NCBI GenBank assembly: GCA_040954595.2
Contig: CM082582.2
Coordinates: forward strand, 124,001-188,000
Reading direction: 5' to 3'
DNA from: Balanoglossus misakiensis
Taxonomy: Eukaryota > Animalia > Hemichordata
Length of the DNA stretch: 64,000 bases
Positions 21,105-54,995 of this stretch are shown in pieces. The position numbers and the translations under genes are program-made. Position 1 is the stretch's first letter; each line of letters opens with the position of its first letter. The notes below the pieces were generated by a model. It had not been told where the DNA came from and made no database searches. It saw nothing but the letters and a program-made list of their open reading frames with translations.

Positions 21105-21214
21105 TGGTGGCAGCGGTGAACGTGAGTGATCAGATGTAAGCAGACTTTACACAGTATCGACTACACAAGACACCAAAACTACAGAAGAAAAGACCATCGA
21201 ACTGACCTGACAAG

Positions 21215-24200: not shown

Positions 24201-25369
24201 CTATTCGAGACGATATCGCTATCGAAGATGGTATTGTCCTGATAGGCAGCCGACTCCTCATACCAGCAGTAATGAGAGATGAAATGCTACAACGCATTCA
24301 TAGCAGTCACCTGGGGATCGAGAAATGCAAGCTGAGAGCCAGATCCAGCGTGTACTGGCCAGGAATTTATAAAGATATAGAGAGACTAGTAACAGGATGC
24401 AACGCGTGCCAGAAATTCCAGAATTCCCAGCAGAAGGAACCGATGATTCCAATGGAAATTCCACCACGACCGTGGCACACAATTGGAGCAGACCTATTCT
24501 ACGTGAACCAAACATGGTACATGATAGTTGCTGACTACTACTCCAAGTTCCCCTTTATTAGGAAACTTGAAGACCTCAGAGCCAGTACCATTATGAGAGC
24601 CCTCCGAGTTCTATTTGCAGAGCAAGGAATACCCGAGAAACTAGTTTGTGACAACGGATCTCAGTTTACAGCTAGAGACTTCCACAGCCTAACTGAGAAA
24701 TATGGTTTTGCGATAGTCACATCATCACCATACTATCCCAAAGGGCACGGTTTTATCGAGCGACATGTACAGACCGTGAAGAACATCCTGATGAAGTGCA
24801 AAGAGTCCGGAGATGATCCGAATCTAGCATTGTTGGCACTTCGCGCGACTCCATTGAAGTCCAACATACCATCACCAGCTGAGTTGCTGAACAGCAGAGC
24901 ATGCAAGACAACTCTCCCAGCCAAAATTCACCCAGCAAGAAACGGGGAGGAAGTTCGTCAATACCTGACATCTCAACAGCAGGCCCAGACTTCCAGCCAC
25001 GACCAGCACTCCAGACAACTACCAGAATTGCTGACAGGTCAACAAGTCCATATACAAAACCCAATCAGCAAAACATGGAGTCCAGCGAGAGTTGTAGCCC
25101 CAGCAAACACACCTAGGTCCTACACCGTGAAGTTAGACAACGGGAAACAAATGCGACGCAACAGGATCCACCTGAAACCAGTCAGCGCAGAACTGAAACC
25201 AGCACAGACAGGGATGGATCAACACAATATTGCACCAGCAGTCACAGAGGGAACACCGCCTCAACAACCCGCAACGCCAGCGTCACCAGCCCAAGAATCG
25301 TTGAGATCAACACGAACCAGAACAAACATACAAAAGCCGTCTCGATACAAAGACTATGTGACTGATTGA
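21215..25369 (+). CDS. gag-pol: Gag-Pol polyprotein (Gag zinc knuckles, protease, RT, RNase H, integrase), 1384 aa, uninterrupted
   Basis: CRICGKPNHWQAVC; IDTGAQ protease; RMPFGL and IADDI RT; VDAS...IERELLA RNase H; HSSHLG...CNAC and DLF/CDNG/IER integrase, in Gypsy domain order. Confidence 0.97.
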   Translation: MAAALQTPFTAPKMEWDAPDLAIAFSRFRQKCELTFKTALKDANDEEKASYILLWSGEPGLDKYNSWSFENEDQRKDPTVLFDKFSEHLEPKSNHRIHRYQFQDMRQDTGEPVDDFFSKLKNEAAKCKFGDTKEQEARLVDQLIWGICHQEIQKKLIGRDENLTLKEALDIARGQEATTKHMKTLTDCQIASPVDSKAVNAVKRQPNKTHPKQCTHCGKKHVDTSVKSNCPAYGSKCRICGKPNHWQAVCRSKTSSSEPKSQQRRGGKPIHNVTRSNSNMHQIDDEFLDVGTIKINALDNINRQEEIYTKLTITQSEKKRKVALKCKIDTGAQSNILPLRHFKIIFPEKLDKHGNPKRGHLKENKIILTAYGGSRIKQLGTIVIPCEHRERKIRCLFYVTDAAGPAILGLKASRALNLIQINCSVEAIQVQASPECKTAQPGRNVEVEKRKMNEQKPAGRNRNPTDDYIDSNTPIRDRPPIKSKEQLLRMYPDCFDDVVGCFENYTYHITLDPEVQPVVHPARRVPLELMDRLKTELQEMEDKQIIAKVNQPTNWVNSLVVREKDNGRLRICLDPKDLNKAIKRDHYPTPTLEEITPKLAGATLFSKLDARNGYWNVKIDEELSFLTTFNTPYGRYRFLRMPFGLRMSQDVFQFKIDETYRECEGAVGIADDIQVFGSGERHHDLHLHEAMERTRKAGIKLNKEKCYIKTKECSFFGMLYTEDGVKPNPEKVKAIEMMHPPRDKTEQRTFLGMLNYMGSFIPRLAEHTAPLRELIRDDTEFEWSPTHTKSFNMIKDLISTKTTLAYYDRKKPATLQVDASEKGIGAVLIQEQRPIAFASKALTPAETRYTNIERELLAVVYGCEKFRTYLYGRSFIVESDHRPLEQIQRKNLTKAPPRLQRMLLRIQPYDFTIHYKPGKQMILADALSRLSPQDQNEISDMKVQIHHLVKITPMRQMEIKEETTKDEILQLLIQQVLKGWPDSIKDIHADIRPYWSIRDDIAIEDGIVLIGSRLLIPAVMRDEMLQRIHSSHLGIEKCKLRARSSVYWPGIYKDIERLVTGCNACQKFQNSQQKEPMIPMEIPPRPWHTIGADLFYVNQTWYMIVADYYSKFPFIRKLEDLRASTIMRALRVLFAEQGIPEKLVCDNGSQFTARDFHSLTEKYGFAIVTSSPYYPKGHGFIERHVQTVKNILMKCKESGDDPNLALLALRATPLKSNIPSPAELLNSRACKTTLPAKIHPARNGEEVRQYLTSQQQAQTSSHDQHSRQLPELLTGQQVHIQNPISKTWSPARVVAPANTPRSYTVKLDNGKQMRRNRIHLKPVSAELKPAQTGMDQHNIAPAVTEGTPPQQPATPASPAQESLRSTRTRTNIQKPSRYKDYVTD

Positions 25370-27002: not shown

Positions 27003-28799
27003 ATGTATAGCATAGCTGTTGAACTCAAAAAATATGTAAAACTACAAGTGATGTAAACAACTTGTGGAACCATGTTCAAATCGAGACCAGAAGAAAAGAG
27101 ATTTCAAGACTTACCTCCTTCAACACTTTACTGCCCTGTAGCGCACTGTGTGACATTTGTAGTTGTGCATTCATAACCAGAAGGACGTGGCCGAACCTAG
27201 CGAGTATGAACCTATCGCAGAAAAAATTCAAAGAACGATTGGTTTGGTCCAACGATCCCTTATTAGAGAGATGTCCGTAATCACAGGTGTTACTGTACTA
27301 TACCTCTTCAGTGGAATCATTGTGTTTTTCAAAGCGCATCACAATATCAACTCCAATGAGCATAACAGTTTAATTTTCTGTGTATGTCATGCTATAACAC
27401 AGGGAAGTCACAAGAGTGATTTGCAGCCCAACTTACCAGTAACTGTTGAACAATCAACTACGGGTGACATGGTTGGACACTTGGATCCTGCTGGACAAGG
27501 CGTGCATGTGCCGTCGCCTTCCATTGCATATTCACCATTGCCACAGTCAAGCGGATCTTACATTGAATCTGTACACGATTGTCCAGCAGGGCACAGAAGA
27601 CGGGATGTGCGTGCAGGCTCCGCACTTATTTCATCTGATTAAAGAAAATGAGGTTTTTAGGGGCACAAGCCTATCGGGCTTGTGCCCCTATTGGTATTGT
27701 TGGAATATTTCTTCTTTATTATTAGGGCCCAAGCGCAAGCAAGCGCTTGGGCCCTATTGGTTTCGTTGGGGTTTTTACGGGCCCAAGCCAAGCCAGGCTT
27801 GGGCCCGTATTGGTTTCGTTGGGGTTTTTAGGGCCCAAGCGCATACCAGCGCTTGGGCCCTATTGGTTTCGTTGGGGTTTTTCTGTCTTTCTTTCTTTCT
27901 TCTTTCTTTATTCTTCTGTCATTTCTTTGTCGCTCTAGATCTCAGACACCACTGCAGGTACAGTTCTCAAACTTGCTACAGTGGTCAAGGTCAATGAGTA
28001 GTCGTGCATTGAACCCATGATTTTTTAATTAGTCACATGACCTGGCGGCCATCTTGGATTTTCTGAAAAAATGCAAATCTCAGATCTCAGAAACTACAAG
28101 TCAGATCGACTTCAAATTTGGCGTGCAGGTAGACTACCTTCTGTCAAACATTTTTGTAATTGGAAATTATGCTGTCAATGTTGCAGTTTTTTTGCTACAA
28201 TTTTTTTTCTGAAATCTGGCTTAAATTTCAAAAATCTTCTTCTCTAGAACCGGTGATAACCGAGACACGGGGTTTGGGGTATGTGGTCACCTAACTGAGG
28301 TCTATCAAGTTTGCGAAGATCATTGTGATTGGTCGAGGATTATGGCGGCCATATTGGATTTTCGAAAAACCCTAGTAAAATTTCAAAAATCTTCTTCTCG
28401 AGAACCGGCGATAACCGAGTCACAAGATTTTGTGTGTGTGGTCATTCACCAGATGTCTATCAAGTTTGCGAAGAGGAATGTGATTGGTCGAAGATTATGG
28501 CGGCCATATTGGATTTTGTGAAAAACGATTAAAAAGTAAAAATTCCCTTTCTAGCCTAAAAATTGATAGCACAGAAATTCTTTTTATGGATATGAATCAT
28601 CATATAACAAGAATAAGCTATAAATATTTTGGTAATTTTGGCAATGACCTTTGACCTACTTTTGACGCATCAATTTTCTGCATATCTAATTCCAGGCTAA
28701 CCAATAGGGCTATAAGTTTGGTTTTTGATGTATGTGGATTTGTATGTGATCAAAAAATTTTGCTACTTTTCATGACCCCTTTGACCTCTGCTGACCTCA

Positions 28800-29650
28800 T
28801 TAAATATGCGCATACCTAATTACAGTTGAACCAATAGACCTAGAGGTTTTGTTTTTGTTGGACAGGACAAGTATGGGGTCAAAATTTTTTACCCAAATTT
28901 TGGGTGACCTCTGGTGACCTTTGACCTACTTTCGCATATCTCGACATCCATAGCAGATACAGCCTTGGCGTTTGGAGGTATGGGGCCATAATGAAAAGCC
29001 AAAGTTTTGGCTCACCTGTGACACCTGCTTCACTCATTATTTATGTGCATACCTAATTCTGGGCTAACCAAAAGGGCTAGAGGTTTTGTTTTTGTTATAC
29101 ATGGACCAGTATGGGGTCAAAATATTTTGCCCAAATGTTGGGTGACCTCGGGTGACTTTTGACCTACTTTTGCATAACTTGACATCCACAGCAGATACAG
29201 CCTTGGCGTTTGGAGGTATGGGGCCATAATGAAAAGCCAAAGTTTTGTGTCACCTGCGACACCTGCTTTACTCATTATTTATGTGCATACCTTATTCCGG
29301 GCTAACCAAAAGGGCTAGAGGTCTGGTTTTTGTTGGACATGGACCACTCTGGGTCAAAATTTTCTGCCCAAATTTTGGGTGACCTCAGATGACCTTTGAC
29401 CTACTTTTGCATATCTCGACATCCACAGCAGATACAGCCTTGGCGTTTGGAGGTATGGGGCCATAATGAAAAGCCAAAGTTTTGGGTCACCTATGACACC
29501 TGCTTTACGCATTAATTATGTGCTTACATAATTACAGGTTTACCAACACGGCTACAGGTCTGGCGTTTGTTCGACATGGACATAGTATGGGGTCAAACTA
29601 TTTTGTCCGAATATCGGTGTGGCCTTAGGTGACCTTTGATTTACTTTCGT
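28800..29650. repeat. Internal ~238-bp tandem subrepeats of the HINE body (about 3.5 copies)
   Basis: gcagatacagccttggcgtttggaggtatggggccataatgaaaagcc recurs at ~28953, ~29191 and ~29429. Confidence 0.85.
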
Positions 29651-32600
29651 ATATATCAGCATCCATAGTAGGTTCATTCTTGTCCCTGGGGTGACCTTGT
29701 CTTATTTTTCCATATCTCGTCTTTCAGAGCAGATAAAGTATTTGTATTTAGTATGTTGAAACACTTTACGGGTTGTTATACTTAAGCAAATTGTATGCCT
29801 AATAATAAGAGGGCCATAGATGTTTTGTGTTTTGGATATGTACTAGTATGTGACAAAATTAAATGACAAAAGTTTGTATGGCCATTGGGTGATATATCAG
29901 CCAAACCAGATATATTGTACAGAGTAAAGATAGATAAGAAAATCAGACATAGAAGTTATGTTTTAAGTGGTCAGAGACCTATAATGTACATTAAAATAAA
30001 GAGATAACTACAATAAAGGCTGCTTTCAAACAAGCACTGATTCAACTGAAAGGTTTATCTTAAATAAATAAAAGGTTGATAACAGTAGAGGTTTGTGTTT
30101 GTTATTGCAAGAATAAGACATCAAATCAGGTCGAATAATCAATATCATTCAAGGTAAGCTAATTACCAGGTCCATATAATAAATAAGAGAAAAATGACAA
30201 TTTCTACAGGATCATTTTGAACCACTGCTAAGCTCTTGTACCAGGTGTCCGGAATGGGTAAGTGTGCCCTCCTAGTATGTTACACCCGTCAATACTGACC
30301 ACAAGTGACAAATTGTAGTAAAATTTGACTTAACTACAAAATTACTGATGCAAGTTAAATCCAGGAATGCTGTCACTCATCATTTGAGTAACATACAGCA
30401 TTTTTGGAAACAACATCATTTATCTACCATAGAACTACTTAAATGACCTAACTGTTCTGCTTTTGCAGAATCCTTATCTTACAAGCTTGAACATTAATAA
30501 GCTGTGTCTTACTCTAAAATCCTCATATGAATCACATGCTCTACAGTATCTTAGGCACTGTTTTTGGCTATTATGTGATGATGCACACTTTGCCATTTAT
30601 AATTCATATGTTACCCAGTAGTTTTATATTGAAGCAAACCAAGCTGGCTTTAATCTAATGACTATGGCCAAGTGTAGTAACAGACAATATTTAATTCTTC
30701 CACCAAGAGAATTGGTGTACTTATGTTACCATCTATCTTAATCATTTGAATATCCAGTTTCCTTTCAGTGCATGTTGACATATCAAATACTTAAAAACAT
30801 ATATATTAAGAGGACATATCTAATAGAACACTTATTAAGTGTGGAAATCTGACCCTGGCAAATGTCTACTAGAATTTCAAAATGCAGTTTTTGGCCCTTT
30901 TGTGATATCATTCAAGAATACAGGGAATACTTGCATAATGTTTCTCACTGTGCAATATAACTTCAGTGCATAAACAAAAAAACGGGGTCAGAAATTACCC
31001 CTTTGCTATATAAAAAGTGGTGATTATATGTATGACATTCAGATTAAATAAACTACATTGTTTCTCTTGGATACATAACATATTGCCATCATGGTACTGT
31101 ACATGACAGCTAGAGTAATTCATACTCTATAATCTCATTGTAAGCTCGATGTGGTCTAAACAGTTTGCAACTATACAGTCAAATACATGGATCGAAGTTT
31201 AACCAACAGTCAAAAACAGGATGGACATCATAAATTATTTTACTGAATCATTGAATGTTCTATCTTGTACATGTATGTGTACCGTATGTGCATAGTGCAG
31301 ATTGAGTACAGTTCACCAATATTTCAGCATGTTTCAACTATTAAAACAACAGAAACAGTTTTTAATATTGAAGAAAACTCTTAACAATTGCTGAATAAGA
31401 GTTTTTCTCTTAAGAGCATTCATCTATATATGAAATGAACAATTTGTAGATGTGTCACTGTTTTAAAGCAAGCTAGGCACAGGCTAATCTTTTACAATAC
31501 AATGTTCCTTGATGACTTCTGCAGGGTTCAATGAACACAAATAGCTTAATCCACACATGGTAGTGATATGAACAAAGTTAAATAATTAACACATATATAT
31601 TAAATACAGATATTTCTGTTTGTAAATATTTCCATTTTTTCTATTTATGCCGATTACTCCATAGGATATGAAAACCCTTTCCATACAGATCGAAACATCA
31701 TCTTTCTATTATATCCGTCATGCAACAGACTACAGTTCATTAACAGCATAGCATTCCTAATAATGTTTCTGGGTAATTATGGAGCTTGCTCAAAAGCACA
31801 CATTGTTGCTATGTATATGTGTGACACTTTAATAATGAGACAAACTCTCAGACCCACTATCTTGTGACAGTGTTCTATTTGCTTTTTCCCTTCGACCAAA
31901 TTCACATCTACAGTTCACTTGTATTAAAATGCATTGATTTCTGTGCTGTATATTCACATGTGCTATCTACACTGAAATGCCATACAGCTTCTGTGGCAAC
32001 AGCTCAACAAATACCATTCGAAGAAATTAATTATTAACCCCTGTTTCTCCAGGTCAATGTACCATATTTTTACTTTTATAATACAATCTTCTATTCTTCA
32101 CACTACATTTGATGATAAAATTTACAATTTCCAACATCAATTTATATTAGAATTAATGTTCTAATCCAACCAACATGACTTTTAACTATCATAAAATATT
32201 CAACAGACAGAATGATGTGTGATGATAAACTTTAGAATGTCAAACCATTCAGTAAATGCTCAAATAAAGCCAACTATGCTGATCAAAATGTTTATAATTG
32301 TAAAATATCCAACACACACAATCTTTTTTTGATAACAAAATATAATTGTAAAGATTTCAATTACTTTTCAAACAAAATGTAACAACACTGATTCTAAATA
32401 ATTAATCACCCTTAAATAATCAATGAACACAACCATGTTTAATAATAAATCTGACAATTTCAAAGATGTTACTTAGTGTTGTAATGAAAATGAAAATTTC
32501 ATGTATGTCATGTTGACACAAACTTTAAAAACATAAAATCTCCAACACAGTATTTCATTTGAGAAAAAGAATACAAGTTCAAACATTTCAAGCCACATTG

Positions 32601-33270: not shown

Positions 33271-33885
33271 TATGTTACAAATGTACATATGCCAGTGCAT
33301 ACATAACACAGACATACAGACAGATAAAACATTATGACAGCCAGGCAGCCTGTCTTAAATTACTAAATCCTTCGCCTGAGTTTATCTTCTTCTGAAAGTT
33401 AAATCATTTCAAATTTGTACCAAAATATATTTTAATTCTTCTCTATATTAAACACATTTATACTACATCACATCACCTAATCGGCCTTGAAGTCTGGATA
33501 TCCACATATCCTTTTCACCTTAACAGCATTCTCCTCGCTCTAAAAAGGCAGCTAGAGTTGTAACCTTTCGCGACTTCACAGCACACTTGGCTGTTTTATT
33601 TAAATATTTGAATATTCTTGATATCTTCAAACCACACAAACTTCAATTGTGTACCTTTTTGTATGACCTGTGGTCAATGACAATTTACCTCTCTGTTTCA
33701 CTAACTATTGTTCATTAGCGCCTCACCAATACAGTACATGACATAAAAATCAAGGAAATCTTTTTGTTCCAACTGTCAATACATCCATATGTAAATTTGC
33801 AATATCCTATGCTGGTACTGTATTATGGGGAACTTTGCCGCATCAGATCAAAAACGTCATCAAAAAATAGAAATTATAAACTAGA

Positions 33886-34090: not shown

Positions 34091-34460
34091 GTATTAATTG
34101 ATTGATGATTTATTTTTGAACATTTTAGTATCTGTAGCACCTTTACAAAGTTGATTAATTGTATTTTCTGTTATAATTTATTTTAACCCTGTAAACAGTT
34201 CTCCTATTTTCTGTTTTCTTTCACCCTCAGTTTCATCCTTTCTCAGTTTTATCCTTAGCTGCATGCAGATGTGGTTGTCATCATATTGGAATTGTGTTGA
34301 TGTATGTATAAATTTTATCACAATGCTCTTTATCCTGTATTTGTAACTTGATTAGTGAGACTGAAGACATTTTTTACATTTGTTGTTGACAATAAACTAT
34401 TTGAATTGAACATAATTGATTTATCCTAGCAGGCAGTATAAGTACTTTCACTAGTTTTGC

Positions 34461-34624
34461 TCCCAGACCTCATCGCTATGCATCCTAGTGCACTACTGGC
34501 AGTATGATTAGGCAAGGAGAATAGCAACTAGCAAGAGTCGCTCCGCCAGCACAGGATACTTGCCCGGTCATGTCCTACCACCAGAGGCACATGTTTTGCC
34601 TTGGCGAAGCAACAAGGTCTGGAA
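34461..34624 (-). ncRNA. Candidate structured RNA element (five-way junction), family unknown
   Basis: 17-bp closing stem plus four abutting hairpins, with about 10 G-U pairs valid only on the minus strand. GC-richer island in AT-rich DNA. Folded by eye; no expression evidence. Confidence 0.55.
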
Positions 34625-34756
34625 CCATCTGTCACCAATCTTTTTGTTTACAAAGGCCATTTTTGAAGCATGTACCTGAATGAGGTTTTTCCTTGTCATG
34701 TTTTTTTTCTTTATTTTTCTATTTACTTATTTTATTTCAAATACAAGTGTAAATTA

Positions 34757-35134
34757 CTATATTTTGATGCTTATTGCTTCATGAAAGCTGAAGTATTTTG
34801 GTATAACATTTACTGTCACATCTTTTATTCCTTTCACATACACATGATCAATCAGTGTATTAGCTTCTGTAGTTGGTTGGCTTACAGATTGTCTGAAACC
34901 ATGATCTTCCATGAACTTTACAAGTGATAACCGAGTCAATATATCTTCATTGAAATCACCCATGATCAGTTTGCCTCCTGGGTATTTTTCCATTGCTTTC
35001 ACCAAAGAAACCATGCTATTTTTGAATACCTCTGCTTTGTATGATGGTGGTCTGTAAACTACAGCTACTGTAACATTGATTTTAGCAACATAAAATGAAA
35101 TACATTCCAAATTACACACACCCAAATGCAACAT
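34757..35134 (-). pseudogene. C-terminal half of the Helentron AP-like (EEP) endonuclease
   Basis: VVYRPP, IMGDFNED, TLIDHVYV and YFSFHEAI motifs; N-terminal half missing; out of frame with the Rep ORF. Confidence 0.88.
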
Positions 35135-38100
35135 TCAAAAAACAATGAAATCTATGATCAAACATTCTTGCTGCTGTTACGGGATTTCGTCTCAAGATAC
35201 CACATTTCTCAGACCAATCGAGATCCTCAGCATTACGTACATCACCTTCTTCAAGTAGGATAGTCTCAATTACTTCTTTCCACCTTAAGTCAGCAGCAGA
35301 AAATGAGCAGAACCATGTTGGTATACCTAACTGTCTAATCATTGCAAACAAATCTTTCTGTGTAGCTTGCCAATAAGGAGGAGTTCCTCGTACTGGTTTT
35401 AAAAACTTGTAGCCTTCATCACATTTCAATATCTCTCTCAAAGAATCCCCATCAGTCAGAACATCAGATGTCACCTTTTTGCCACAAGCATTGGCAGTGC
35501 CTTTTCTCAAAGCGATTGACACATTTGATACAACCTGGTCAAGTTCTGAACGATATTGTGCATAGAATATATAGTCTGTGCTTCTGGCAAACCTGTTACT
35601 TGCATTCATTAGACGACTCTGCAGGTATCGCCCTATTGTTATCTTAACCTCTCGGTCATCGTGAAATGTTGGTGACCCAGTTGGGAATATCACAGGAAAG
35701 CACTTCGCTTCATTGAACTTTTCCATCAACACTCTAACAGGTTTATTATCCTCACCAGGAGCAACACAAGCGATATCGTCAAAGTGATAATCCAGAATAT
35801 CCTGACCAATGTCAACTGGTTGAAAGCATGTGTCCATGAATATTCCATTTGTATCTCTATCAGGTTCATTTCCATCTTCTGTGTCTGATGCTACATCATT
35901 GCCTTCAGTATCTAACAATTTTTCCTCAGTGTTTCCATTACTTTCACCATCAGATTTTTCTTCAGTCTTTTCAAGAGTATTTTCCCAAGTGAGATTGAAA
36001 TTTACATCATTATACCACATGTTACTCTTCTTTAGGTATTCCAGTGCATTTTGAATGTGTCCTTTGTTTACAAATTGATACTCATAACAACCTTTATAAC
36101 TTAATTTCCGCTTTAATTTCACCTTTATCATCTGGTCATCCAATTCACCTCTAGGCAAAATACTTGTGGCTTTTTCTATATTAGATGGGACACACACAAC
36201 AGGTCCATGAACACCATTTTGTCCACCTCTTGGCAGAGCCATCATTTTCATGAAAGGAATATGCAGTGCAATTAAATGTTGCTCTAAAGAATTCAGACAT
36301 TTTAATTCATCAGGGATTGGTTTCACATCAAGATTGTTTGCAGCAGCTTGAACAGGCATCTCTGCACGCAAGAGTTTGCTATGGCATGTGTGACACATCC
36401 ATAATTTACTAGCTGCACTGCTCTTAAGGGGACAATCAACAATACATAATTCACTACAGTTGTGTACATACTCTTGTGTTATGCATTTGTTGGCATTCAT
36501 TTCACAAAGACCTCCCTTAGAGACATAGTTATCCATCTTACAAACAAGGACCTGCCTTCTAAAAAGTCGCCGATGACAAACTGAACATACACAATTTGGC
36601 CCAACTGAAATCTGATTCTGGAAATCAATTATAACACGCTCTATATTTCCCTTTTCAATCTTTGTCACTTTCCTCTCAGTACGTCTTCTCTCCAGTACAG
36701 TTTGTTTATAAACGTGATCCTGTTGGTAACGTTCCAAACATTTTTTTGGGGTCCGGTTTTGAAACTCTTCGTCTCTGTTATACTTGTCAAGAAATTGTGC
36801 TGCATTCTGACTTTTTTTGTGTTCTCGGAACTTCTGATCGTTTTGGAACTTGTTAGCAAATACTGCTGCAGTCTGTCTCTTCTGATGTTCTCGAAACTCC
36901 AGATCTTTTTTGTACTTGTCAACACATTGTGCTGCACTCTGTCTCTTCTTTTGTTCTCGGAATGCCTGATCTTTTTTGTACTTGTCAACACATTGTGCTG
37001 CACTCTGTCTCTTCTTTTGTTCTCGGAATGTCTGATCTTTTTTGTACTTGTCAACACATTGTCTCTTCTTTTGTTCTCGGAACGTCTGATCTTTTTTGTA
37101 CTTGTCAACACATTGTGCTGCACTCTCACTCTTCTTGTGCTCTCTGTATAGTGGAACTTTTTCATATTTTGCCAAACATTGTTCTGCACATACAGTTTTC
37201 TGTACTTCACGAAATACTAGGTCATGATCGTATCTTCCTGCAAGTCTACGTTTTTTGTTCTCTCTGTACAGTACATCTTCATGATATCTCTTTCTTCTAA
37301 CCGATTTTATATTGTCTCTATATTCACAATTAGTCTGATAGCGTTCATATTGTTTAGCTGCTTTAGAGCTCTTCAGACTACTGGGTACATTTAATTGATT
37401 CAATTTACCTCTTTCACTTTCATACTTTTCACGCCTGAGTTTCTTTTTCAGCCGTTCACCCATGGCTCTTCCACGTTTCTCACCTCTTACTGGTGCAAGA
37501 CACGGAAGTTCTTCATGTGTTGCAAATACTTCATCCAAATGGAACTCTTGTTTCAAACCAATCTGTTTTGAACACTCATTGTCTGTCACATCCATGCATT
37601 CTCCAATAGGGACAACTACATTGCAATCAATGTGTGTACAATGACAGGTTTCCAACTGTGGTGTCTTCACACACTCAACTACTTCATAATGGTTTCTATT
37701 GCGATGGTTCAGGTATATACCAACACCTCTATCAACATTATTTTTATTGATTAAATTACAAGAATGTTTCCACCAACTATCAAAACTGTACACAAAAATA
37801 TTCACATTGAAGAGATTTGTAGTGGCAAGGATTTCAGTTTCTGTAGCCCATGTTCCAAGACGATCCATTCTGGACTTCTCAATATAATCAGCAACTGATG
37901 TATATCCATCTAACCTTACCCAGCCTGAATATACTTCCTCATTGGCTTTCAAGTGATTCACAATAGCCGTTCGAATTACTCCATGATTTCGCTCAGTCCC
38001 ACTTATACAATATGACAAGGACCTAAAAAAACAGTTACCATCACCAATTATTGACTTGTAATTACATGGGTCTCCAATTGTAACACTTCCAAGTTTATTT

Positions 38101-38912
38101 AAAATATCAATTTTATTTTTATCTACAATATCAAATTTGCAACACAGCTGTTCACATACATCAGAAGTAAGTGGAGAGAATGAATAAACACTGTCCTCTG
38201 TTCCACTACCAATATATAGGTCGTCCGATGAATCATTGTCAAGACTATGTTGTTGCAGAATTTCATTACTTCCTTCAGTCTTATCAACACTTTGATTTTC
38301 AGTCTCAAATATCTCATTGTTGACTTTTGAACTTTCATTTTCTCTGTCACTTTTTCTGATTTTATCCATATTCCTGTTTTTAGAGAGGGCAGGCCCCTCT
38401 TTGAATTCATTTCTATTCCTGTTTTTAGAGAGGGCAGGCCCCTCTTTGAATTCATTTCTATTCCTGTTTTTAGAGAGGGCAGGCCCCTCTTTGAATTCAT
38501 TATTATTCCTGTTTTTAGAGAGGGCAGGCCCCTCTTTGTATTCATTTCTATTCCTGTTTTTAGAGAGGGCAGGCCCCTCTTTGGATTCATTTCTATTCCT
38601 GTTTTTAGAGAGGGCAGGCCCCTCTTTGATTTCATTTCTATTCCTGTTTTTAGAGAGGGCAGGCCCCTCTTTGGATTCATTTCTATTCCTGTTTTTAGAG
38701 AGGGCAGGCCCCTCTTTGATTTCATTTCTATTCCTGTTTTTAGAGAGGGCAGGCCCCTCTTTGGATTCATTTCTATTCCTGTTTTTAGAGAGGGCAGGCC
38801 CCTCTTTGTGCTCTATAGCTATCCTGTTTTTCAAGAGGACAGGATCCTCAGACACAACAGCATCTTCATTCTTCTGACTCCTCTTCTTCCTCCAGTATCT
38901 ACTGCGTGGCAT
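35112..38912 (-). CDS. Helentron Rep protein, C-terminally truncated (repeats - OTU protease - Cys-rich/DUF6570-like - Helitron_like_N)
   Basis: GDGNCFFRS...WATETE...NHYE (OTU, ~37680-38055); CSVC...CHTC...IPDELKCLNSLEQHLI...GQNGVHGPVVCVP; CFPVIFPTG, RGTPPYW, MIRQLGIPTWFCSFSAAD, NPVTAARMF. Stops before the HUH and Pif1 motifs. The first ATG (38912) directly follows a ttgctttgttccag acceptor. Confidence 0.92.
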   Translation of the reverse strand: MPRSRYWRKKRSQKNEDAVVSEDPVLLKNRIAIEHKEGPALSKNRNRNESKEGPALSKNRNRNEIKEGPALSKNRNRNESKEGPALSKNRNRNEIKEGPALSKNRNRNESKEGPALSKNRNRNEYKEGPALSKNRNNNEFKEGPALSKNRNRNEFKEGPALSKNRNRNEFKEGPALSKNRNMDKIRKSDRENESSKVNNEIFETENQSVDKTEGSNEILQQHSLDNDSSDDLYIGSGTEDSVYSFSPLTSDVCEQLCCKFDIVDKNKIDILNKLGSVTIGDPCNYKSIIGDGNCFFRSLSYCISGTERNHGVIRTAIVNHLKANEEVYSGWVRLDGYTSVADYIEKSRMDRLGTWATETEILATTNLFNVNIFVYSFDSWWKHSCNLINKNNVDRGVGIYLNHRNRNHYEVVECVKTPQLETCHCTHIDCNVVVPIGECMDVTDNECSKQIGLKQEFHLDEVFATHEELPCLAPVRGEKRGRAMGERLKKKLRREKYESERGKLNQLNVPSSLKSSKAAKQYERYQTNCEYRDNIKSVRRKRYHEDVLYRENKKRRLAGRYDHDLVFREVQKTVCAEQCLAKYEKVPLYREHKKSESAAQCVDKYKKDQTFREQKKRQCVDKYKKDQTFREQKKRQSAAQCVDKYKKDQAFREQKKRQSAAQCVDKYKKDLEFREHQKRQTAAVFANKFQNDQKFREHKKSQNAAQFLDKYNRDEEFQNRTPKKCLERYQQDHVYKQTVLERRRTERKVTKIEKGNIERVIIDFQNQISVGPNCVCSVCHRRLFRRQVLVCKMDNYVSKGGLCEMNANKCITQEYVHNCSELCIVDCPLKSSAASKLWMCHTCHSKLLRAEMPVQAAANNLDVKPIPDELKCLNSLEQHLIALHIPFMKMMALPRGGQNGVHGPVVCVPSNIEKATSILPRGELDDQMIKVKLKRKLSYKGCYEYQFVNKGHIQNALEYLKKSNMWYNDVNFNLTWENTLEKTEEKSDGESNGNTEEKLLDTEGNDVASDTEDGNEPDRDTNGIFMDTCFQPVDIGQDILDYHFDDIACVAPGEDNKPVRVLMEKFNEAKCFPVIFPTGSPTFHDDREVKITIGRYLQSRLMNASNRFARSTDYIFYAQYRSELDQVVSNVSIALRKGTANACGKKVTSDVLTDGDSLREILKCDEGYKFLKPVRGTPPYWQATQKDLFAMIRQLGIPTWFCSFSAADLRWKEVIETILLEEGDVRNAEDLDWSEKCGILRRNPVTAARMFDHRFHCFLNVAFGCV
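36760..37260 (-). repeat. Coding ~66-bp (22-aa) repeat, QCVDKYKKDQxFREQKKRQSAA
   Basis: Four close copies plus diverged flanking copies in the Rep ORF. Confidence 0.9.
38368..38850 (-). repeat. Coding 45-bp (15-aa) minisatellite, KEGPALSKNRNRNEx x10
   Basis: Ten near-identical copies plus one degenerate copy (EDPVLLKNRIAIEHK). Confidence 0.95.
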
Positions 38913-39189
38913 CTGGAACAAAGCAAATATACTGTCTAGTTAGGTTTTTACTATCCTTTCACCACCAGACTTCAGATAACCTTCTCATCAAATCACATCA
39001 CTAGTGATTATAACCAGTAAAAAGTAGTGGAACTTTTAACAGACAGAAGTGATTTATAGAAACTAAGTCCGAACAAAGTTGTAATTCAACAGCAACACAT
39101 AATACAAGCATATCCCCATGCCTTTATACAAATAGACACATATACACACAAAGTATCACAGACACACTTTTTTACTGCTGGAAAACAGG

Positions 39190-42185
39190 ATAAGGCTTAA
39201 ATCCTGACCCCTGTATGACCTAACATTCTGGCATTCACATTGGAATGTGCTCAGACAAATCTCAGATATGAGTGAAATTTTCTTTAAAAATCATTTCCGC
39301 TATTTATTAGCAATATCAAGTCCAAGTACGATAGATAGGCATACATGTATGAATTTGCACAGACATAAACAAATACACGGACACCCCAACATCCACCGTG
39401 TTCAACCAAATAAGGCTTCAGATCTGATTCTGAATGACCCGACATTTTCCCATTTACGTTGCAATGTACTCAGCCAAATCTGAATAAAATTTCACTTCAA
39501 AATCATTTCCACCAGTTAGCAATATCAAGTCCAAGTACGATAGGCATACATGTATGAATTTGCACAGACATAAACAAATACACGGACACCCCAACATCCA
39601 CCGTGTACAACCAAATAAGGCTTCAGACCTGATTCTGAATGACCCGACATTTTCCCATTTACGTTGCAATGTACTCAGCCAAATCTGAATAAAATTTCAC
39701 TTCAAAATCATTTCCACCAGTTAGCAATATCAAGTCCAAGTACGATAGGCATACATGTATGAATTTGCACAGACATAAACAAATACACGGACACCCCAAC
39801 ATCCACCGTGTACAACCAAATAAGGCTTCAGACCTGATTCTGAATGACCCGACATTTTCCCATTTACGTTGCAATGTACTCAGCCAAATCTGAATAAAAT
39901 TTCAATTCAAAATCATTTCCAACAGTTAGCAATATCAAGTCCAAGTACACTGATAGGCATACATGTATGAATTTGCACAGACATAAACAAATACACGGAC
40001 ACCCCAACATCCACCGTGTACAACCAAATAAGGCTTCAGACCTGATTCTGAATGACCCGACATTTTCCCATTTACGTTGCAATGTACTCAGCCAAAATCT
40101 GAATGAAATTTCACTTCAAAATCATTTCCACCAGTTAGCAATATCAAGTCCAAGTACACTGATAGGCATACATGTATGAATTTGCACAGACATAAACAAA
40201 TACACGGACACCCCAACATCCACCGTGTACAACCAAATAAGGCTTCAGACCTGACCCTAAATGACCCAACATTTTCCCATTTACGTTGCAATGTACTCAG
40301 CCAAATCTGAATAAAATTTCACTTCAAAATCATTTCCACCAGTTAGCAATATCAAGTCCAAGTACGATAGGCATACATGTATGAATTTGCACAGACATAA
40401 ACAAATACACGGACACCCCAACATCCACCGTGTACAACCAAATAAGGCTTCAGACCCGACCCTGTATGACCCGACATTTTCCCATTTACGTTGCAATGAA
40501 CTCAGCCAAATCTGAATAAAATTTCACTTCAAAATCATTTCCACCAGTTAGCAATATCAAGTCCAAGTACACTGATAGGCATACATGTATGAATTTGCAC
40601 AGACATAAACAAATACACGGACACCCCAACATCCACCGTGTACAACCAAATAAGGCTTCAGACCTGATTCTGAATGACCCGACATTTTCCCATTTACGTT
40701 GCAATGTACTCAGCCAAATCTGAATAAAATTTCACTTCAAAATCATTTCCACCAGTTAGCAATATCAAGTCCAAGTACGATAGGCATACATGTATGAATT
40801 TGCACAGACATAAACAAATACACGGACACCCCAACATCCACCGTGTACAACCAAATAAGGCTTCAGACCTGATTCTGAATGACCCGACATTTTCCCATTT
40901 ACGTTGCAATGTACTCAGCCAAATCTGAATAAAATTTCAATTCAAAATCATTTCCAACAGTTAGCAATATCAAGTCCAAGTACACTGATAGGCATACATG
41001 TATGAATTTGCACAGACATAAACAAATACACGGACACCCCAACATCCACCGTGTACAACCAAATAAGGCTTCAGACCTGATTCTGAATGACCCGACATTT
41101 TCCCATTTACGTTGCAATGTACTCAGCCAAAATCTGAATGAAATTTCACTTCAAAATCATTTCCACCAGTTAGCAATATCAAGTCCAAGTACACTGATAG
41201 GCATACATGTATGAATTTGCACAGACATAAACAAATACACGGACACCCCAACATCCACCGTGTACAACCAAATAAGGCTTCAGACCTGACCCTAAATGAC
41301 CCAACATTTTCCCATTTACGTTGCAATGTACTCAGCCAAATCTGAATAAAATTTCACTTCAAAATCATTTCCACCAGTTAGCAATATCAAGTCCAAGTAC
41401 GATAGGCATACATGTATGAATTTGCACAGACATAAACAAATACACGGACACCCCAACATCCACCGTGTACAACCAAATAAGGCTTCAGACCCGACCCTGT
41501 ATGACCCGACATTTTCCCATTTACGTTGCAATGAACTCAGCCAAATCTGAATAAAATTTCACTTCAAAATCATTTCCACCAGTTAGCAATATCAAGTCCA
41601 AGTACACTGATAGGCATACATGTATGAATTTGCACAGACATAAACAAATACACGGACACCCCAACATCCACCGTGTACAACCAAATAAGGCTTCAGACCT
41701 GATTCTGAATGACCCGACATTTTCCCATTTACGTTGCAATGTACTCAGCCAAATCTGAATAAAATTTCACTTCAAAATCATTTCCACCAGTTAGCAATAT
41801 CAAGTCCAAGTACGATAGGCATACATGTATGAATTTGCACAGACATAAACAAATACACGGACACCCCAACATCCACCGTGTACAACCAAATAAGGCTTCA
41901 GACCTGATTCTGAATGACCCGACATTTTCCCATTTACGTTGCAATGTACTCAGCCAAATCTGAATGAAATTTCACTTCAAAACCATTTCCACCAGTCAGC
42001 AATATCAAGTCCAAGTACAATGAGAGGCATACATGTATGAATTTGCACAGACACACACACGGACAAATACACACACAGTATTCACTGACACCGCATTTCC
42101 CTCCTGAAGAACCTGGCAAGGCTTGAATCTTGACCCCTGTATGACCTTACATCCTGGCATTTTCATTATGTACTCATACAAATCA
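39190..42185. repeat. ~207-bp tandem satellite (about 13 conserved units, degenerate edges) with 1035-bp higher-order repeat
   Basis: Units of 205-209 bp; diagnostic variants recur exactly 1035 bp apart (39864/40899, 40088/41123, 40281/41316, 40486/41521, 40694/41729). Confidence 0.95.
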
Positions 42186-44000: not shown

Positions 44001-47000
44001 TATCCATACTACATCCTCTTCACAGTTAACGAATGTAATATACAGATCTGTTCACTTAAATAAAGATATGTTTATAGCCAAACAAATACATCTGTCAAAA
44101 CTTTCACTGATTCAGATGAAAATTTTCAACAATTTACAACCAATCCACACATCACTAGTGACTATTAACCAATCACATAATGTGTCCATTCTAACTTTGT
44201 ATTTCGCCCTCAACTACTGCATGTGTAATGATGCATGTGGATTAGTGTGTAATCACAATATTTTGTAGTCTACCTTCTGCCCATCATTTTTGTAATTGGA
44301 CATTATGCTGTCCATGTTCCATTTTTTTGCCACAATTTTTACTATGTTTGCCAAGAACATTGTCATTGGTCGAAGATTATGGCGGCCATATTGGATGTTC
44401 GAAAAACCATACTAAAACTCCAACAATCTTCTCCAGAACCAGCGATAACTGAGTCGCAAGATTCGGGGAGTATGGTCACTACACTGATGTCTATCAAGTA
44501 TGCAAAGAGCATTGTGATTGGTCGAAAAATATGGCGGCCATATTGGATTTTGTAAAAAGCAGTGAAAAATTGAAATTCCTTTTTCTAGTCTAGAAATTGA
44601 TAGCATTCAAATTCTTTTTATGGATATCAATCATCATATGACTAAAATATGTTACAAATTGTTGGTGATTTTTCACATGACCTTTGACCTACTTTTCACA
44701 CATTATTATTTCTGCATATCTCTTTCCAGGCTAACCTATAGGGTTGCATATATAGCTCATACTACCTGTTCTAAATGTACCAGAGTTCTGATTTTTGTGC
44801 ACATTGGTATCGCCACTGCCAGGACCTACCCCAAATATTTTGGTAATTTTGGCAATGACCTTTGACCTACTTTTGACACATCGTTTTTTCTGCATATCTA
44901 ATTCCAGGCTAACCTATAGGGCTATCATTTTGGTTTTTGATGTATGTGGATTTGTATGTGATCAAAAATTTTTGCTACTTTTCATGACCCCTTTGACCTC
45001 TGGTGACCTCATTAAATATGCGCATACCTAATTACAGATGAACCAATAGACCTAGAGGTTTGGTCTTTTTTGGACATTGATCAGTATGGGGTCAAAATAA
45101 TTTGCCCAAATTTTGGGTGACCTCAGGTGACCTTTGACCTACTTTCGCATTTCTCGGTATCCAAAGCAGATACAGCCTTGGCGTTTTGAGGTATGGGGCA
45201 ATAATGAAAAGCCAAATTTTTGGATCACCAGTGACACCTGCTGACCTCATTCAATATGCACATACCTAATTACACGCAAACAAATAGAGCTAGAGTTTTG
45301 GTTTTTGTTGGACATGGACCACTATGGGTCAAAATTTTCTGCCCAAATTGTGGGTGACCTCTGGGTGACCTTTGACCTGCTTAACACTATATCAACACCA
45401 AACATAGATATAACCTTGATATTTCATGGGATAAAACACAGCATTATGTTTCAACTCATTAATTATGTGCATATCTAATAATCAGATCAGATAATAGAGC
45501 TTGGGCCCGGACAATGCTGCTTGCAGCTTTAATTCTTTCTTTCTTTCTTTATTCTTGGTTCATTTCTTTCGCGCTCTAGATCTCAGACACCGCTGCAGGT
45601 ACAGTTCTCAAACTTGCTACAGTGGTCAAGGTCAATGAGTAGATGTGCAGTGACTTGTGAATACTTAATTAGTCACGTGACATGGCGGCCATATTGGATT
45701 TTCTGAAAAAATGCAAATCTCAGATCTCAGAAACTACAAGTCAGATCGACTTCAGATTTGGCGTGCTGGTAGTATACCTTCTGCCCATCATTTTTGTAAT
45801 TGGATATTTTGCTGTCAATGTTGCAGTTTTTTTGCTACAGTTGTTTTTCTGAAATCTGGTCAAAATTTCAAAAATCTTCTTCTCCAGAACCGGCAATAAC
45901 CGAGTCACGCCGTTTGGGTTATGTGGTCACCTAACTGATGTCTATCAAGTTTGCGAAGATCATTGTGATTGGTCAAAGATTATGGCGGCCATATTGAATT
46001 TTCGAAAAACTATAGTAAAACTTCAAAAATCTTCTCCTCCAGAACGGGCGATAACCGAGTCACAAGATTTGGTGTGTGTGGTCATTAAACGGATGTCTAT
46101 CAAGTTTGCGAAGGGGAATGTGATTGGTTGAAGATTATGGCAGCCATATTGGATTTTGTGAAAAACGATTAAAAAGTAAAAATTCCTTTTCTAGCCTAAA
46201 AATTGATAGCACAGAAATTCTTTTTATGGATATGAATCATCATACGACAAGAATAAGCTATAAATATTTTTGTAATTTTGGCAATGACCTTTGACCTACT
46301 TTTGACGAATCATTTTTCTGCATATCTAATTCCAGGCTAACCAATAGGGCTATAAGTTTGGTTTTTGATGTATGTGGATTTGTATGTGATCAAAACATTT
46401 TGCTACTTTTCATGACCCCTTTGACCTCTGGTGACCTCATTAAATATGCGCATACCTAATTAATGATGAACCAATAGACCTAGAGGTTTTGTTTTTGTTA
46501 TACATGGACCAGTATGGGGTCAAAATATTTTGCCCAAATGTTGGGTGACCTCGGGTGACCTTTGACCTACTTTTGCATAACTTGACATCCACCGCAGATA
46601 CAGCCTTGGCGTTTGGAGGTATAGGGCCATAATGAAAAGCCAAAGTTTTGGGTCACCTATGACACCTGCTTAACCCATTATTTATGTGCATATCTAATTT
46701 CGGGCTTACCAAAAGGGCTAGAGGTCTGGTTTTTGTTGGACATGCACCACTATGGGTCAAAATTTTCTGCCCAAATGTTGGGTGACCTAAGATGACCTTT
46801 GACCTACTTAACCCAATATCAGCACCAAACATAGATATAACCTTGATATGTCATGGGATAAAACACAGCATTATGTTTCTACTCATTAATTATGTGCAGA
46901 TCAGATAATAGAGCTTGGGCCCGGACAATGCTGCTTGCAGCTTTAATTCTGTCTTTCTTTCTTCTTTCTTTCTTTATTCTTGTGTCAATTCTTTGTCGCT

Positions 47001-48381
47001 CTAGATCTCAGAGACCACTGCAGGTACACTTCTGAAACTTGCTACAGTGGTCAAGGTCAATGAGTAGTCGTGCATTGAACCCTTGAATTTTTAATTAGTC
47101 ACATGACCTGGCGGCCATCTTGGATTTTCTGAAAAAATGCAAATCTCAGATCTCAGAAACTACAAGTCAGATCGACTTCAAATTTGGCGTGCAGGTAGAC
47201 TACCTTCTGCCCATCATTTTTGTAATTGGAAATTATGCTGTCAATGTTGCAGTTTTTTTGCCACAATTTTTTTTCTTAAATCTGGTCAAAATTTCAAAAA
47301 TCTTCTTCTCCAGAACCGGTGATAACCGAGACACGGGGTTTGGTGTATGTGGTCACCTAACTGATGTCTATCAAGTTTGCGAAGATCATTGTGATTGGTC
47401 GAAGATTATGGCGGCCATATTGGATTTTCGAAAAACCATAGTAAAACTCAAAAAATCTTCTACTCCAGAACCGGCGATAACTGAGTCGCAAGATTTGGGG
47501 AGTATGGTCACTACACTGATGTCTATCAAGTTTGCAAAGAGCATTGTGATTGGTTGAAAAATATGGCAGCCATATTGGATTTTGTAAAAAGCAGTAAAAA
47601 ATTGAAATTTCTTTTTCTAGTCTAAAAATTGATAGCATAGAAATTCCTTTTATGGATATCAATCGTCATGTGACTAAAATATGCTACAAATTTTTGTCGA
47701 TTTTTCACATGACCTTTGACCTACTTTTCACACATTATTTCTGCATATCTATTTCCAGGCTAACCTATAGGGCTAGACATTTGGTTTTTCATGCATGTGG
47801 ATTTGTGTGTGATCAAAATATTTTGCTACTTTTCATGACCCCTTTGACCTCTGCTGACCTCATTAATTATGTGCATAGCTAATTACAGGCGAACCAATAG
47901 AGCTAGAGGTTTGGTTTTTGTTGGACATGGACCAATATGGGGTCAAAATTTGTTGCCCAAATATTGGGTGACCTCTGGTGACCTTTGACCTACTTTCGCA
48001 TATCTCAGCATCCAGCGCAGATACAGCCTTGGCATTTGGCAGGATGGGACCAAAATGTAAAGCCACATTTTTAAGTCACCTGTGACACCTGCTGACCTCA
48101 TTAAATATGCACGTACCTAATTAAAGGCGAACCAATAGAACTAGAGTTTTGGTTTTTGTTGGACATGGAACAGTATGGGTCAAAAAATTTTGCCCAAATG
48201 TTGGGTGACGTCAGGTGACCTTTGACCTACTTTACTCTATTTCAGTAGGAAAAATACATACGTCCTTGTTACGTCATGAGATAAAACACCCGATAGAGCA
48301 TTCTGTTTCTTCTCATTCATACTGTGCATATATAATACCGGATCAGCGCTTGGGCCCGACAATGCTGCTTGCAGCTTTAAT

Positions 48382-52948: not shown

Positions 52949-53375
52949 TAGTCTCGGTTACCCAGAGCCCTCTGCTTCTTCCGTTAGGCACTCCAGAAAG
53001 AGGGTCTGGGGAAACCCGGTAGACACATTGCCGGGCGGAATCGGGACAGCTGCGATGCATGACGGGAGCTTAATATTCGGTACGATATTATGATATGACG
53101 ATATTAGAAAACTATTAACCAAACTTCTCTCTCTCTTTTCAATTTGTAGACAGTTTTAGCAGGTCTAGCACTACTCAGCATGTTTTCTTTATCGTATGAC
53201 ATACATGTCGGCCGTGAGGTTCGCGCGCAGGACGTTGCCATTTTGGAATATTAAGCTCCCGTCATGCATCGCAGCTGTCCTGATTCCGCCCGGCGATTTG
53301 TCTACCGGGTTTCCCCAGACCCTCTTTCTGGAGTGCCTAACGGAAGAAGCAGAGGGCTCTGGGTAACCGAGACTA
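52949..53375. mobile_element. MITE with ~130-bp TIRs and 10-bp TSD (AcademH-like), copy B only
   Basis: TAGTCTCGGTTACCCAGAG...CTCTGGGTAACCGAGACTA; TAAATATCTG at 52939-52948 and 53376-53385; empty site at ~4547-4556. Confidence 0.88.
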
Positions 53376-53649
53376 TAAATATCTGTTGAAGAGTTTCCAT
53401 GTCAACCATTTTTTTTCAAAATGGCCGCCAATACAGATAATCACACCTGTTAAACACCAAAATAAATTCAGATTACAATATTTGAAACAAGAAACTACGG
53501 AAAGAATGGTTTGCAATAGAACTATGGTTATTAAACTACAAATGTACTTATAAGGGTAACTAAGGGATCAAAACACAGGTGAAACTTTCAATCCCTGGTT
53601 CTCGCATTAGTATAGGTGCTCCCCCCAGTCAAACATTATGGCTAGTTGC

Positions 53650-54510: not shown

Positions 54511-54995
54511 AACAGTTTACCACCTTAGCTAAACACATAAACAGATCACCGATACGTCCGAATAGCGTGTGTATGAGGGCTTGGCTAACTTGTGACCTCA
54601 GTAAAGATCATGTGAAAATGTCCATTTTGTTTGGTCGGGCATTCATTCTTGTCGGCAAAAACTGCCATAGGAAATTATAAACTTAAGTCAAATTGTTGAA
54701 ACAATAAATAATAGTCCATGTGTCTTGATACTTCAGATCATGCATCGGTTCGACTCTGTCTGTAGTCGGCTACCCAAATTTATTGGGAAGTTCGGCCTTT
54801 TACACATTAATACGTGTGGTTTTCGATCATATCCTACCGGTCTTATTGGTTGGCATTAATTTGGCAGTGTGCTATAAGCATATTACATCCTACATCAAAC
54901 CAAAATAAAGCTTGTGATACTTTGACCATCAGTATTTGTTTACTTTTAGTCGCTAGTGAAATTCAAGCTCAGTAATAACTTTACAACTAACTTAT

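What the first reader, a model, noticed from the sequence alone, without database searches (positions are those of the whole stretch)
34426..34626. Strand-specific five-way-junction fold carried by a Helentron just downstream of its endonuclease
Seen: on the minus strand, 34624-34461 folds almost completely. P1 is UUCCAGACCUUGUUGCU/AGCGAUGAGGUCUGGGA (17 contiguous pairs, 4 G-U). It encloses P2 UCGCCA-AGGCA/UGCCU-C-UGGUGG, P3 UAGGA/UCCUG, P4 GCUGGCG-GAG/CUC-U-UGCUAGU and a bulged P5 (UGC/GCA, UCCU/AGGA, UGC/GCA, UACU/AGUA), joined by 0-1 nt linkers. A further hairpin, CUAGU..AGUA/UACU..GCUAG, follows to 34426. About 10 wobble pairs would be A-C mismatches on the plus strand, unlike the perfect DNA palindromes of the MITEs here. 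The fold is a GC-richer island ~130 nt past the EN stop, in the same sense as Rep, with two AATAAA (34736-34731, 34715-34710) in between. Inference: a selected RNA (or ssDNA) structure of the Helentron, such as a 3'UTR element, an IRES-like element, a separate ncRNA or a Rep/EN-binding scaffold. I do not recognise it as any known RNA family.
Basis: partly seen in the sequence, partly recalled or inferred. Interest (0 to 1): 0.82.

Follow-up and report, generated by a model that had tools for sequence, protein, structure and literature searches.

The report
Four-way RNA fold in Helentron tail
Just past the last gene of an animal rolling-circle transposon lies a non-random 168-base stretch predicted to fold into a four-armed (not five-armed) shape that matches no catalogued RNA; its stems persist across diverged copies, so it likely protects or marks the end of the transposon's message, though a decayed DNA palindrome is not excluded.

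Summary
The fold is non-random and favours the coding (minus) strand: RNA z -4.0 versus -2.0, DNA z only -1.7. It is predicted as a four-way junction or a rod. It lies 131 nt past the endonuclease stop of a Helentron that has lost about 1,120 codons. In one sample, diverged subfamilies keep both halves of the fold but not its arm tip or downstream flank; 13 of 15 visible changes spare it. No two-sided compensation could be read, no RNA run was listed, and no homologue was found in Rfam or 38 related loci. Best reading (0.5): a selected 3' RNA element of the transposase mRNA. Main rival (0.3): a relic of a TAG...CTA palindromic DNA transposon end, whose G-U bias may come from strand-biased mutation. 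Side result: 5 of 38 related loci carry a MALAT1-like triplex plus tRNA-like module in the same slot.

The parts
34459..34626 (-). Core fold, predicted four-way junction (168 nt, 60 pairs, 12 G-U)
   Evidence: RNA -71.2 kcal/mol, z -4.02
34608..34624 (-). P1 5' strand of the 17-bp closing helix
   Evidence: mean pair probability 0.985
34461..34477 (-). P1 3' strand
   Evidence: recruited by abundant subfamilies from 34460
34580..34605 (-). P2 hairpin; its 7-nt loop (34590-34596) varies among copies
   Evidence: 4 of 7 loop positions vs 2 of 23 neighbouring positions changed in one variant read, Fisher P 0.016
34498..34579 (-).
   Evidence: pair probabilities 0.88-0.98; changes at 34508-34510 in a variant restore three Watson-Crick pairs
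34478..34493 (-). P4 small hairpin after a 4-nt linker (34494-34497); most relatives add a sixth pair through 34483 T>C
   Evidence: pair probability 0.66
34426..34454 (-). Trailing hairpin; stable here but not conserved
   Evidence: 6 substitutions and a 13-nt insertion in the nearest relative, not recruited by abundant subfamilies
34710..34736 (-). Two AATAAA hexamers in a 50%-A spacer; not more than chance
   Evidence: P 0.20 of 2 or more
34757..35134 (-). C-terminal 125 aa of the Helentron AP-type endonuclease (P0002)
   Evidence: weak Pfam Exo_endo_phos hits below cut-off; 46-48% identical to the ends of Rep-helicase-endonuclease proteins P0006 and P0007
35120..35140 (-). Junction of an internal deletion of about 1,120 codons (rest of Rep, helicase, start of endonuclease)
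   Evidence: P0001 ends at residue 395 of P0007 and P0002 starts at 1513; a loose end at 35135 in run X2 shows copies that continue otherwise
35112..38939 (-). ORF P0001: OTU protease, DUF6570, Helitron_like_N, truncated
   Evidence: Pfam PF02338, PF20209, PF14214 above cut-off
39307..42053 (.). 205-bp tandem array upstream of the ORF, used to measure strand bias of mutation
52949..53375 (.). Comparison only: TAG...CTA MITE with long inverted repeats and a 10-bp target duplication; its end resembles the ends of P1

Best explanation
The 168-nt stretch is likely a selected cis-acting RNA structure in the 3' untranslated part of the Helentron transposase mRNA, predicted to fold as a four-way junction that would shield or define the message's 3' end. 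Shown: it lies on the coding strand 131 nt past the stop and folds better than shuffles as RNA; it is shared by diverged subfamilies whose visible changes mostly spare the stems. Inferred: transcription runs past the chance-level AATAAA pair. The 17-bp closing helix with G-U-broken arms then binds a host double-stranded-RNA protein or stalls 3'-5' decay, which raises the level of a long single-ORF mRNA. It may descend from a captured palindromic DNA-transposon end. In this deleted copy it is partly decayed.
For: RNA z -4.02 on the sense strand vs -2.02 antisense; DNA z -1.69 and -0.54. In the one relative that spans the whole stretch, 3 of 3 core changes are at unpaired positions (48 of 168 positions are unpaired; P about 0.02, hand calculation). 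Of 15 visible substitutions 2 cost over 1 kcal/mol, against 41% of all 504 single changes (P 0.02); one of the two keeps a U-G pair. A 2-nt deletion falls at a bulge. Summed contig depth at 80% identity in run X1 is 7,200-14,300 over both halves vs 600-1,000 in the flanks and arm tip. One diverged contig joins P1 to the endonuclease gene (34595-34874). Two other Helentron groups hold different conserved modules in the same slot: MALAT1-like in 5 of 38 loci, a long hairpin in 4 of 38.
Against: No two-sided compensatory change was seen; the tool hides differences near piece ends, so about 4 changes in each half of the abundant subfamilies are unread, and the listed ones are biased to the P2 loop. 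One minor variant breaks a P2 pair unless its unseen partner changed, and one loose end differs at 5 of 15 positions of the P1 5' strand with its partner unseen. All variants come from one sample. No homologue in 38 loci of related Helentrons, and many of them show no strong fold in the slot. G-U bias is compatible with the element's own mutation bias. The window's lineage carries three pair-weakening changes in P3. No known 3'-end signature (U-rich loop, tRNA-like fold) is present.
Confidence: 0.5

Rival explanations
1. The fold is a passive relic of a palindromic DNA transposon end or small MITE (TAG...CTA, Academ-like) captured by an ancestral Helentron. Template switching between arms keeps the stems, and strand-biased C>T and A>G mutation turns pairs into G-U on the minus strand.
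For: On the plus strand the fold begins with TAG and resembles the first 24 nt of the MITE at 52949, and its other P1 arm resembles the MITE's inner repeat in the right order; each match is in the top 5-8% of 646 control windows. An abundant variant matches the MITE end at one more position (loose end). Wobble-making vs mismatch-making changes in the 205-bp array are 7:2, and non-coding parts are G-rich on the minus strand. A variant P3 is a perfect 13-bp inverted repeat.
Against: The outer repeat and a target duplication are missing at the other end. The two matches are weak and not independent. The 7:2 bias has P 0.09, and two related groups show little or none (65:75 and 25:20); at 50:50, 12 G-U to 2 A-C has P 0.006. 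Stems diverge about as little as coding DNA (10-15% vs 13-17% in listed pieces; subfamilies not matched across pieces) while tip and flanks fall out of alignment.
Confidence: 0.3
2. The fold works as single-stranded DNA on the strand displaced during rolling-circle transposition, as a second-strand priming site or a docking site for the Rep-helicase-endonuclease.
For: Strand specificity and retention in subfamilies fit. Helitron transposases excise one strand and need a double-stranded circle (PMC13565253, passages).
Against: With DNA energies the fold is hardly better than shuffles (z -1.69, 14 of 200 as good; centroid mostly open). It is not terminal: the element continues at least 1 kb further, whereas Helentron terminal palindromes lie 8-35 bp from the end (PMC4067079, passages).
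Confidence: 0.12
3. It is a separate small RNA or an unknown self-cleaving ribozyme that cuts the transcript's 3' end.
For: Compact, GC-rich, closed by one helix, with linkers of 2, 0, 4 and 0 nt like a cloverleaf.
Against: No Rfam family even at E 10 beyond two chance hits; no tRNA; no properly spaced internal promoter boxes by eye; loops vary, which is unlike a catalytic core.
Confidence: 0.05
4. A chance fold in a GC-richer patch.
For: 10 of 1,276 scanned windows fold better for their GC content.
Against: Those 10 lie in palindromic repeats, a microsatellite or a tandem array; 0 of 200 shuffles match it; variants spare the stems.
Confidence: 0.03

Closest known systems
Helentrons (Thomas et al. 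2014, PMC4067079; abstract and passages seen)
   Same: OTU protease, Rep and AP-endonuclease parts in one element; deletion derivatives are common.
   Different: The passages seen describe only terminal repeats and a 5-10 bp end palindrome; this is a 168-nt internal multi-stem fold at least 1 kb from any end.
RNA stability elements of transposon mRNAs and MALAT1/MEN-beta 3' ends (PMC7583470, passages seen)
   Same: A structured element near the 3' end of a transposase message is proposed to do the same job; a sister Helentron group carries a MALAT1-like module in this slot.
   Different: The window's fold has no U-rich internal loop, no matching A-rich tract and no tRNA-like domain. It may work like them but is not a member.
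Academ/AcademH-type TAG...CTA MITE (9-10 bp duplication for AcademH from PMC10045372, passage; the TAG...CTA termini are recalled, the primary paper was not held)
   Same: One end of the fold and both P1 arms resemble the terminal hairpin module of the MITE at 52949-53375.
   Different: No second end, no target duplication, 130 nt of nested stems instead of a 25-nt loop, folds well on one strand only (the MITE: z -34 and -31).
omega-RNA of Fanzor-bearing Helitrons (PMC13565253, passages seen)
   Same: A structured RNA behind a nuclease gene in a rolling-circle element.
   Different: The nuclease here is an AP endonuclease, not TnpB/Fanzor, and the fold does not abut the element's end, so there is no guide slot.

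Membership tests
Helentron (the host element) | AP endonuclease fused behind Rep/helicase, often with an OTU protease | tested here: met
   Both pieces align to one protein, P0007; the window copy lacks about 1,120 codons between them.
Helentron (the host element) | Subterminal inverted repeats and a 3' palindrome | tested here: inconclusive
   Only chance-length inverted repeats of 11-13 bp and no GC-rich perfect hairpin in the flanks scanned; the ends may lie in the flanking 1.4-kb repeats.
Helentron terminal hairpin | Short palindrome within about 35 bp of the 3' end | tested here: not met
   Multi-copy sequence continues at least 1 kb beyond the fold.
Any Rfam 15 family (ribozymes, IRES, SECIS, snoRNA) | Covariance-model score at the gathering threshold | tested here: not met
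   0 hits in the window; 2 chance hits, E 4.9 and 5.5, in 34200-34900.
MALAT1/MEN-beta 3' module (window fold) | Two U-rich motifs, A-rich tract, tRNA-like domain | tested here: not met
   No RF01684 hit, no tRNA, upstream spacer A-rich not U-rich.
MALAT1/MEN-beta 3' module (loci L005, L006, L008, L010, L014) | Two U-rich motifs, A-rich tract, tRNA-like domain | tested here: inconclusive
   All four motifs in order in 5 of 38 loci. RF01684 hit on L005 at E 0.011, 24.1 bits, below the 42.5 cut-off; none at gathering in 20 loci. Cleavage untested.
ENE stability element | U-rich internal loop that binds poly(A) | tested here: not met
   The only large internal loop (6 by 7 nt) is mixed U/C and lies in the part that diverges.
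Academ-type MITE | Inverted repeats at both ends, TAG...CTA | tested here: not met
   One end only; the scan for such elements lists 52949-53375 but not this fold.
Academ-type MITE | Target-site duplication | tested here: not met
   None seen around the fold.
Academ-type MITE | Match to a catalogued family or free copies elsewhere in the host genome | not testable with these tools
   No host genome held; no second copy in the window.
Functional structured RNA | Significant two-sided covariation | not testable with these tools
   Whole variant sequences are not returned; no other homologues.

The most novel reading that the evidence does not exclude
Helentrons keep a swappable RNA slot behind the transposase stop, filled in each lineage by a different captured 3'-end device: here a four-way junction co-opted from a DNA-transposon end, in a sister group a MALAT1-type triple helix with a tRNA-like RNase P site, in a third a long hairpin. 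Rolling-circle transposons would then make protected, possibly poly(A)-free mRNA ends, and would be a vehicle for the unexplained dispersal of MALAT1-like 3' modules in fish genomes.
Probability: 0.35. Interest if true: 0.78.

Novelty: new variant of a known kind. Interest (0 to 1): 0.52.

Why it matters
No internal RNA element of Helentrons turned up in the searches made. If the fold is a selected 3' element, it gives a first handle on how these transposons stabilise or end their long message. MALAT1-like triplex and tRNA-like modules are known to be scattered in lizards and some fish without a stated mechanism (PMC10869381, passage). Finding one behind an apparently intact Helentron ORF (L008) suggests a testable carrier. 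If the fold is only a palindrome relic, it still shows how strand-biased mutation can imitate an RNA-only structure.

Tried and rejected
Five-way model rejected (a first constrained run placed one P5 strand wrongly and is superseded). Rfam on the window and 20 loci: none. tRNA scans: none in the window and 26 loci. Exact DNA patterns of the fold: 0 in viral contigs and 0 in metagenome contigs. Phage blastn: none. Protein-led locus scans of viral contigs: 0, 0 and 1 doubtful locus. blastn, nhmmer and a single-sequence covariance model over 38 loci and two contaminated MAGs: only the fold itself; such a model is weak for distant relatives. No RNA holder listed, which is no evidence on expression. 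No host genome held. Termini not found. AATAAA pair rejected as evidence. Strand asymmetry alone rejected as evidence. Hammerhead, HDV-like, SECIS and polymerase III box motifs were checked by eye from recalled consensus, none convincing. Two key papers were not held (Zhang 2017 on MALAT1-like loci; Kojima 2020 on AcademH); they or their supplements may already note a Helitron link or list this MITE family. Earlier scan notes had nothing on this fold.

Full report
What was checked. As RNA the minus strand folds at -78.4 kcal/mol, z -3.86, and the plus strand at -59.5, z -1.02. The 168-nt core 34459-34626 gives z -4.02 and -2.02. With DNA energies it gives only -1.69 and -0.54. In a scan of 1,276 windows, 10 folded better for their GC content, all in palindromic repeats, a microsatellite or a tandem array. 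The same scan shows that a strand gap as large occurs in 50 of 638 places, so strand asymmetry alone proves little.

Topology. The five-way structure is -61.8 kcal/mol as written and -65.4 at best, and appears in 0 of 5,000 samples. A rod is the second shape (1,005 of 5,000) and is the minimum at 15 C.

The host element. ORF 38939-35112 carries OTU, DUF6570 and Helitron_like_N domains, and ORF 35134-34757 is an endonuclease tail. They align to residues 6-395 and 1513-1630 of one Helentron protein, so about 1,120 codons are deleted and this copy cannot be autonomous. Named relatives come from fish, a hemichordate and molluscs; the host is an animal, not further identified. No genome is held, and I did not find the termini. 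The fold is not terminal, since multi-copy sequence continues at least 1 kb further. The two AATAAA are chance-level in a spacer that is half A (P 0.20).

Variation among copies. Three runs of one sample were listed, two holding about 40% of the words, none RNA. Their contigs show a multi-copy family with several subfamilies. In run X1, summed depth at 80% identity is 7,200-14,300 over 34460-34519 and 34560-34629, but 600-1,000 in both flanks and the arm tip; one search shows intermediate depth in the upstream spacer. One diverged contig links P1 to the endonuclease gene. The one contig that spans everything differs at 3 core positions, all unpaired, and at 6 positions plus a 13-nt insertion in the trailing hairpin, which is therefore not part of the conserved unit. 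Of 15 visible substitutions, 13 cost 0.3 kcal/mol or less and 2 cost more than 1, against 41% of all 504 single changes. Three restore Watson-Crick pairs in the arm, one adds a pair to the small hairpin, one turns G-U into A-U, one turns C-G into U-G. Limits: the tool hides differences near piece ends, so about four changes per half are unread and no two-sided change can be seen; the listed ones are biased to the P2 loop. One minor variant breaks a P2 pair, and one loose end differs at 5 of 15 P1 positions, both with partners unseen.

Wider relatives. Rfam has no match. Exact patterns found nothing in viral or metagenome contigs. A profile of the endonuclease fetched 38 loci; none holds the fold by blastn, nhmmer or a single-sequence covariance model. 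So the fold is, on present data, specific to this family. Other groups fill the same slot differently. Five of 38 loci carry two U-rich motifs, an A-rich tract and a tRNA-like domain 350-700 nt past the stop, conserved while the spacer between the motifs drifts. The tRNA-like part of L005 hits Rfam mascRNA-menRNA at E 0.011, below the curated cut-off, and L008 has a continuous Rep-helicase-endonuclease alignment. This is the layout described for MALAT1 (PMC7583470, passages). Four of 38 loci have a 16-18 bp hairpin module just past the stop, with no two-sided change among four close sequences. Many other loci among the 22 scanned show no strong fold there.

The main rival. A MITE at 52949-53375 has TAG...CTA ends, long inverted repeats and a 10-bp duplication, the duplication length given for AcademH (PMC10045372, passage; the termini rule is recalled). 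The plus-strand start of the fold and its other P1 arm resemble this MITE's terminal hairpin, each in the top 5-8% of 646 controls; the second end and the duplication are missing. The G-U excess (12 G-U pairs, against 2 A-C oppositions counted by eye) has P 0.006 under even mutation but 0.37 under the 7:2 bias seen in this element's 205-bp array. That bias rests on 9 changes (P 0.09) and is weak or absent in two related groups (65:75, 25:20). A relic kept by template switching therefore remains possible, and the two readings can be combined as capture followed by co-option.

Mechanism. I put 0.5 on a selected 3' RNA element of the transposase mRNA. Shown: position, strand, RNA folding, retention in subfamilies, loop-biased change. 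Inferred: that it is transcribed, that it folds so in cells, and that the closing helix binds a host protein or blocks 3'-5' decay. Rivals: passive relic 0.3, single-stranded DNA signal 0.12, separate RNA or ribozyme 0.05, chance 0.03.

Literature. Four searches (Helentron + endonuclease + secondary structure; Helitron + ribozyme; Helitron + mascRNA; Helitron + untranslated region + conserved RNA structure + fish) listed no paper on an internal Helentron RNA element; I saw listings and abstract starts only. Passages were read in PMC4067079, PMC13565253, PMC7583470, PMC10045372, PMC8788227 and PMC10869381; no supplements were read. The 2017 survey of MALAT1-like loci and the AcademH paper were not held and could bear on novelty.

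Verdict. A non-random, family-conserved, uncatalogued four-way fold, less proven and simpler than first described. It works like a 3' stability element on the best reading but is not a member of any such family. Interest 0.52; the side result on MALAT1-like modules in Helentrons deserves its own follow-up.

Noticed in passing
L005:789-1125, L006:1111-1435, L008:4794-5110, L010:887-1220, L014:702-1025 (+): MALAT1-like 3' module (two U-rich motifs, A-rich tract, tRNA-like domain) 350-700 nt past the Helentron endonuclease stop; RF01684 at E 0.011 on L005; L008 is an apparently intact Helentron. A further 12-bp helix can pair across the tRNA-like part. No paper found with Helitron + mascRNA.
   Followed up: partly
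L001:1427-1510, L002, L018, L026 (+): 16-18 bp hairpin just past the stop, followed by a box-C-like hexamer; by eye it could form a kink-turn with the upstream purine run. No two-sided covariation in four close sequences.
   Followed up: partly
window 52949-53375: 427-bp TAG...CTA MITE with about 130-bp inverted repeats, nested terminal hairpins and a 10-bp target duplication (AcademH-like).
   Followed up: partly
window 34558 and 34617 (variants): In abundant subfamilies the sequence entering the arm tip looks complementary to the P1 5' strand (4-6 nt), which the window copy lacks: either a template-switch product or an alternative helix.
   Followed up: no
window 33600-33850: A second block recruited at high depth by diverged subfamilies, non-coding by ORF scan; unexplained.
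   Followed up: no
window 39307-42053: 13 copies of a 205-209-bp unit with higher-order structure upstream of the Helentron ORF; 7:2 excess of A>G and C>T changes on the coding strand.
   Followed up: partly
window 27722-29750 and 44230-48000: Repeats of about 1.43 kb (155-bp and 237-bp subunits) flank the Helentron interior on both sides, as in the nests reported elsewhere in this genome.
   Followed up: no
window 21206-25369 (+): Uninterrupted 1,387-codon reading frame with RT, RNase H and integrase domains, an LTR retrotransposon pol.
   Followed up: no
window about 3300-16400 and 52700-64000: Short matches at offsets of about 47.5-49 kb suggest a segmental duplication within the window.
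   Followed up: no
L035 (= L011), L036: Bacterial MAG records that hold animal-type Helentron contigs, probably host contamination.
   Followed up: no
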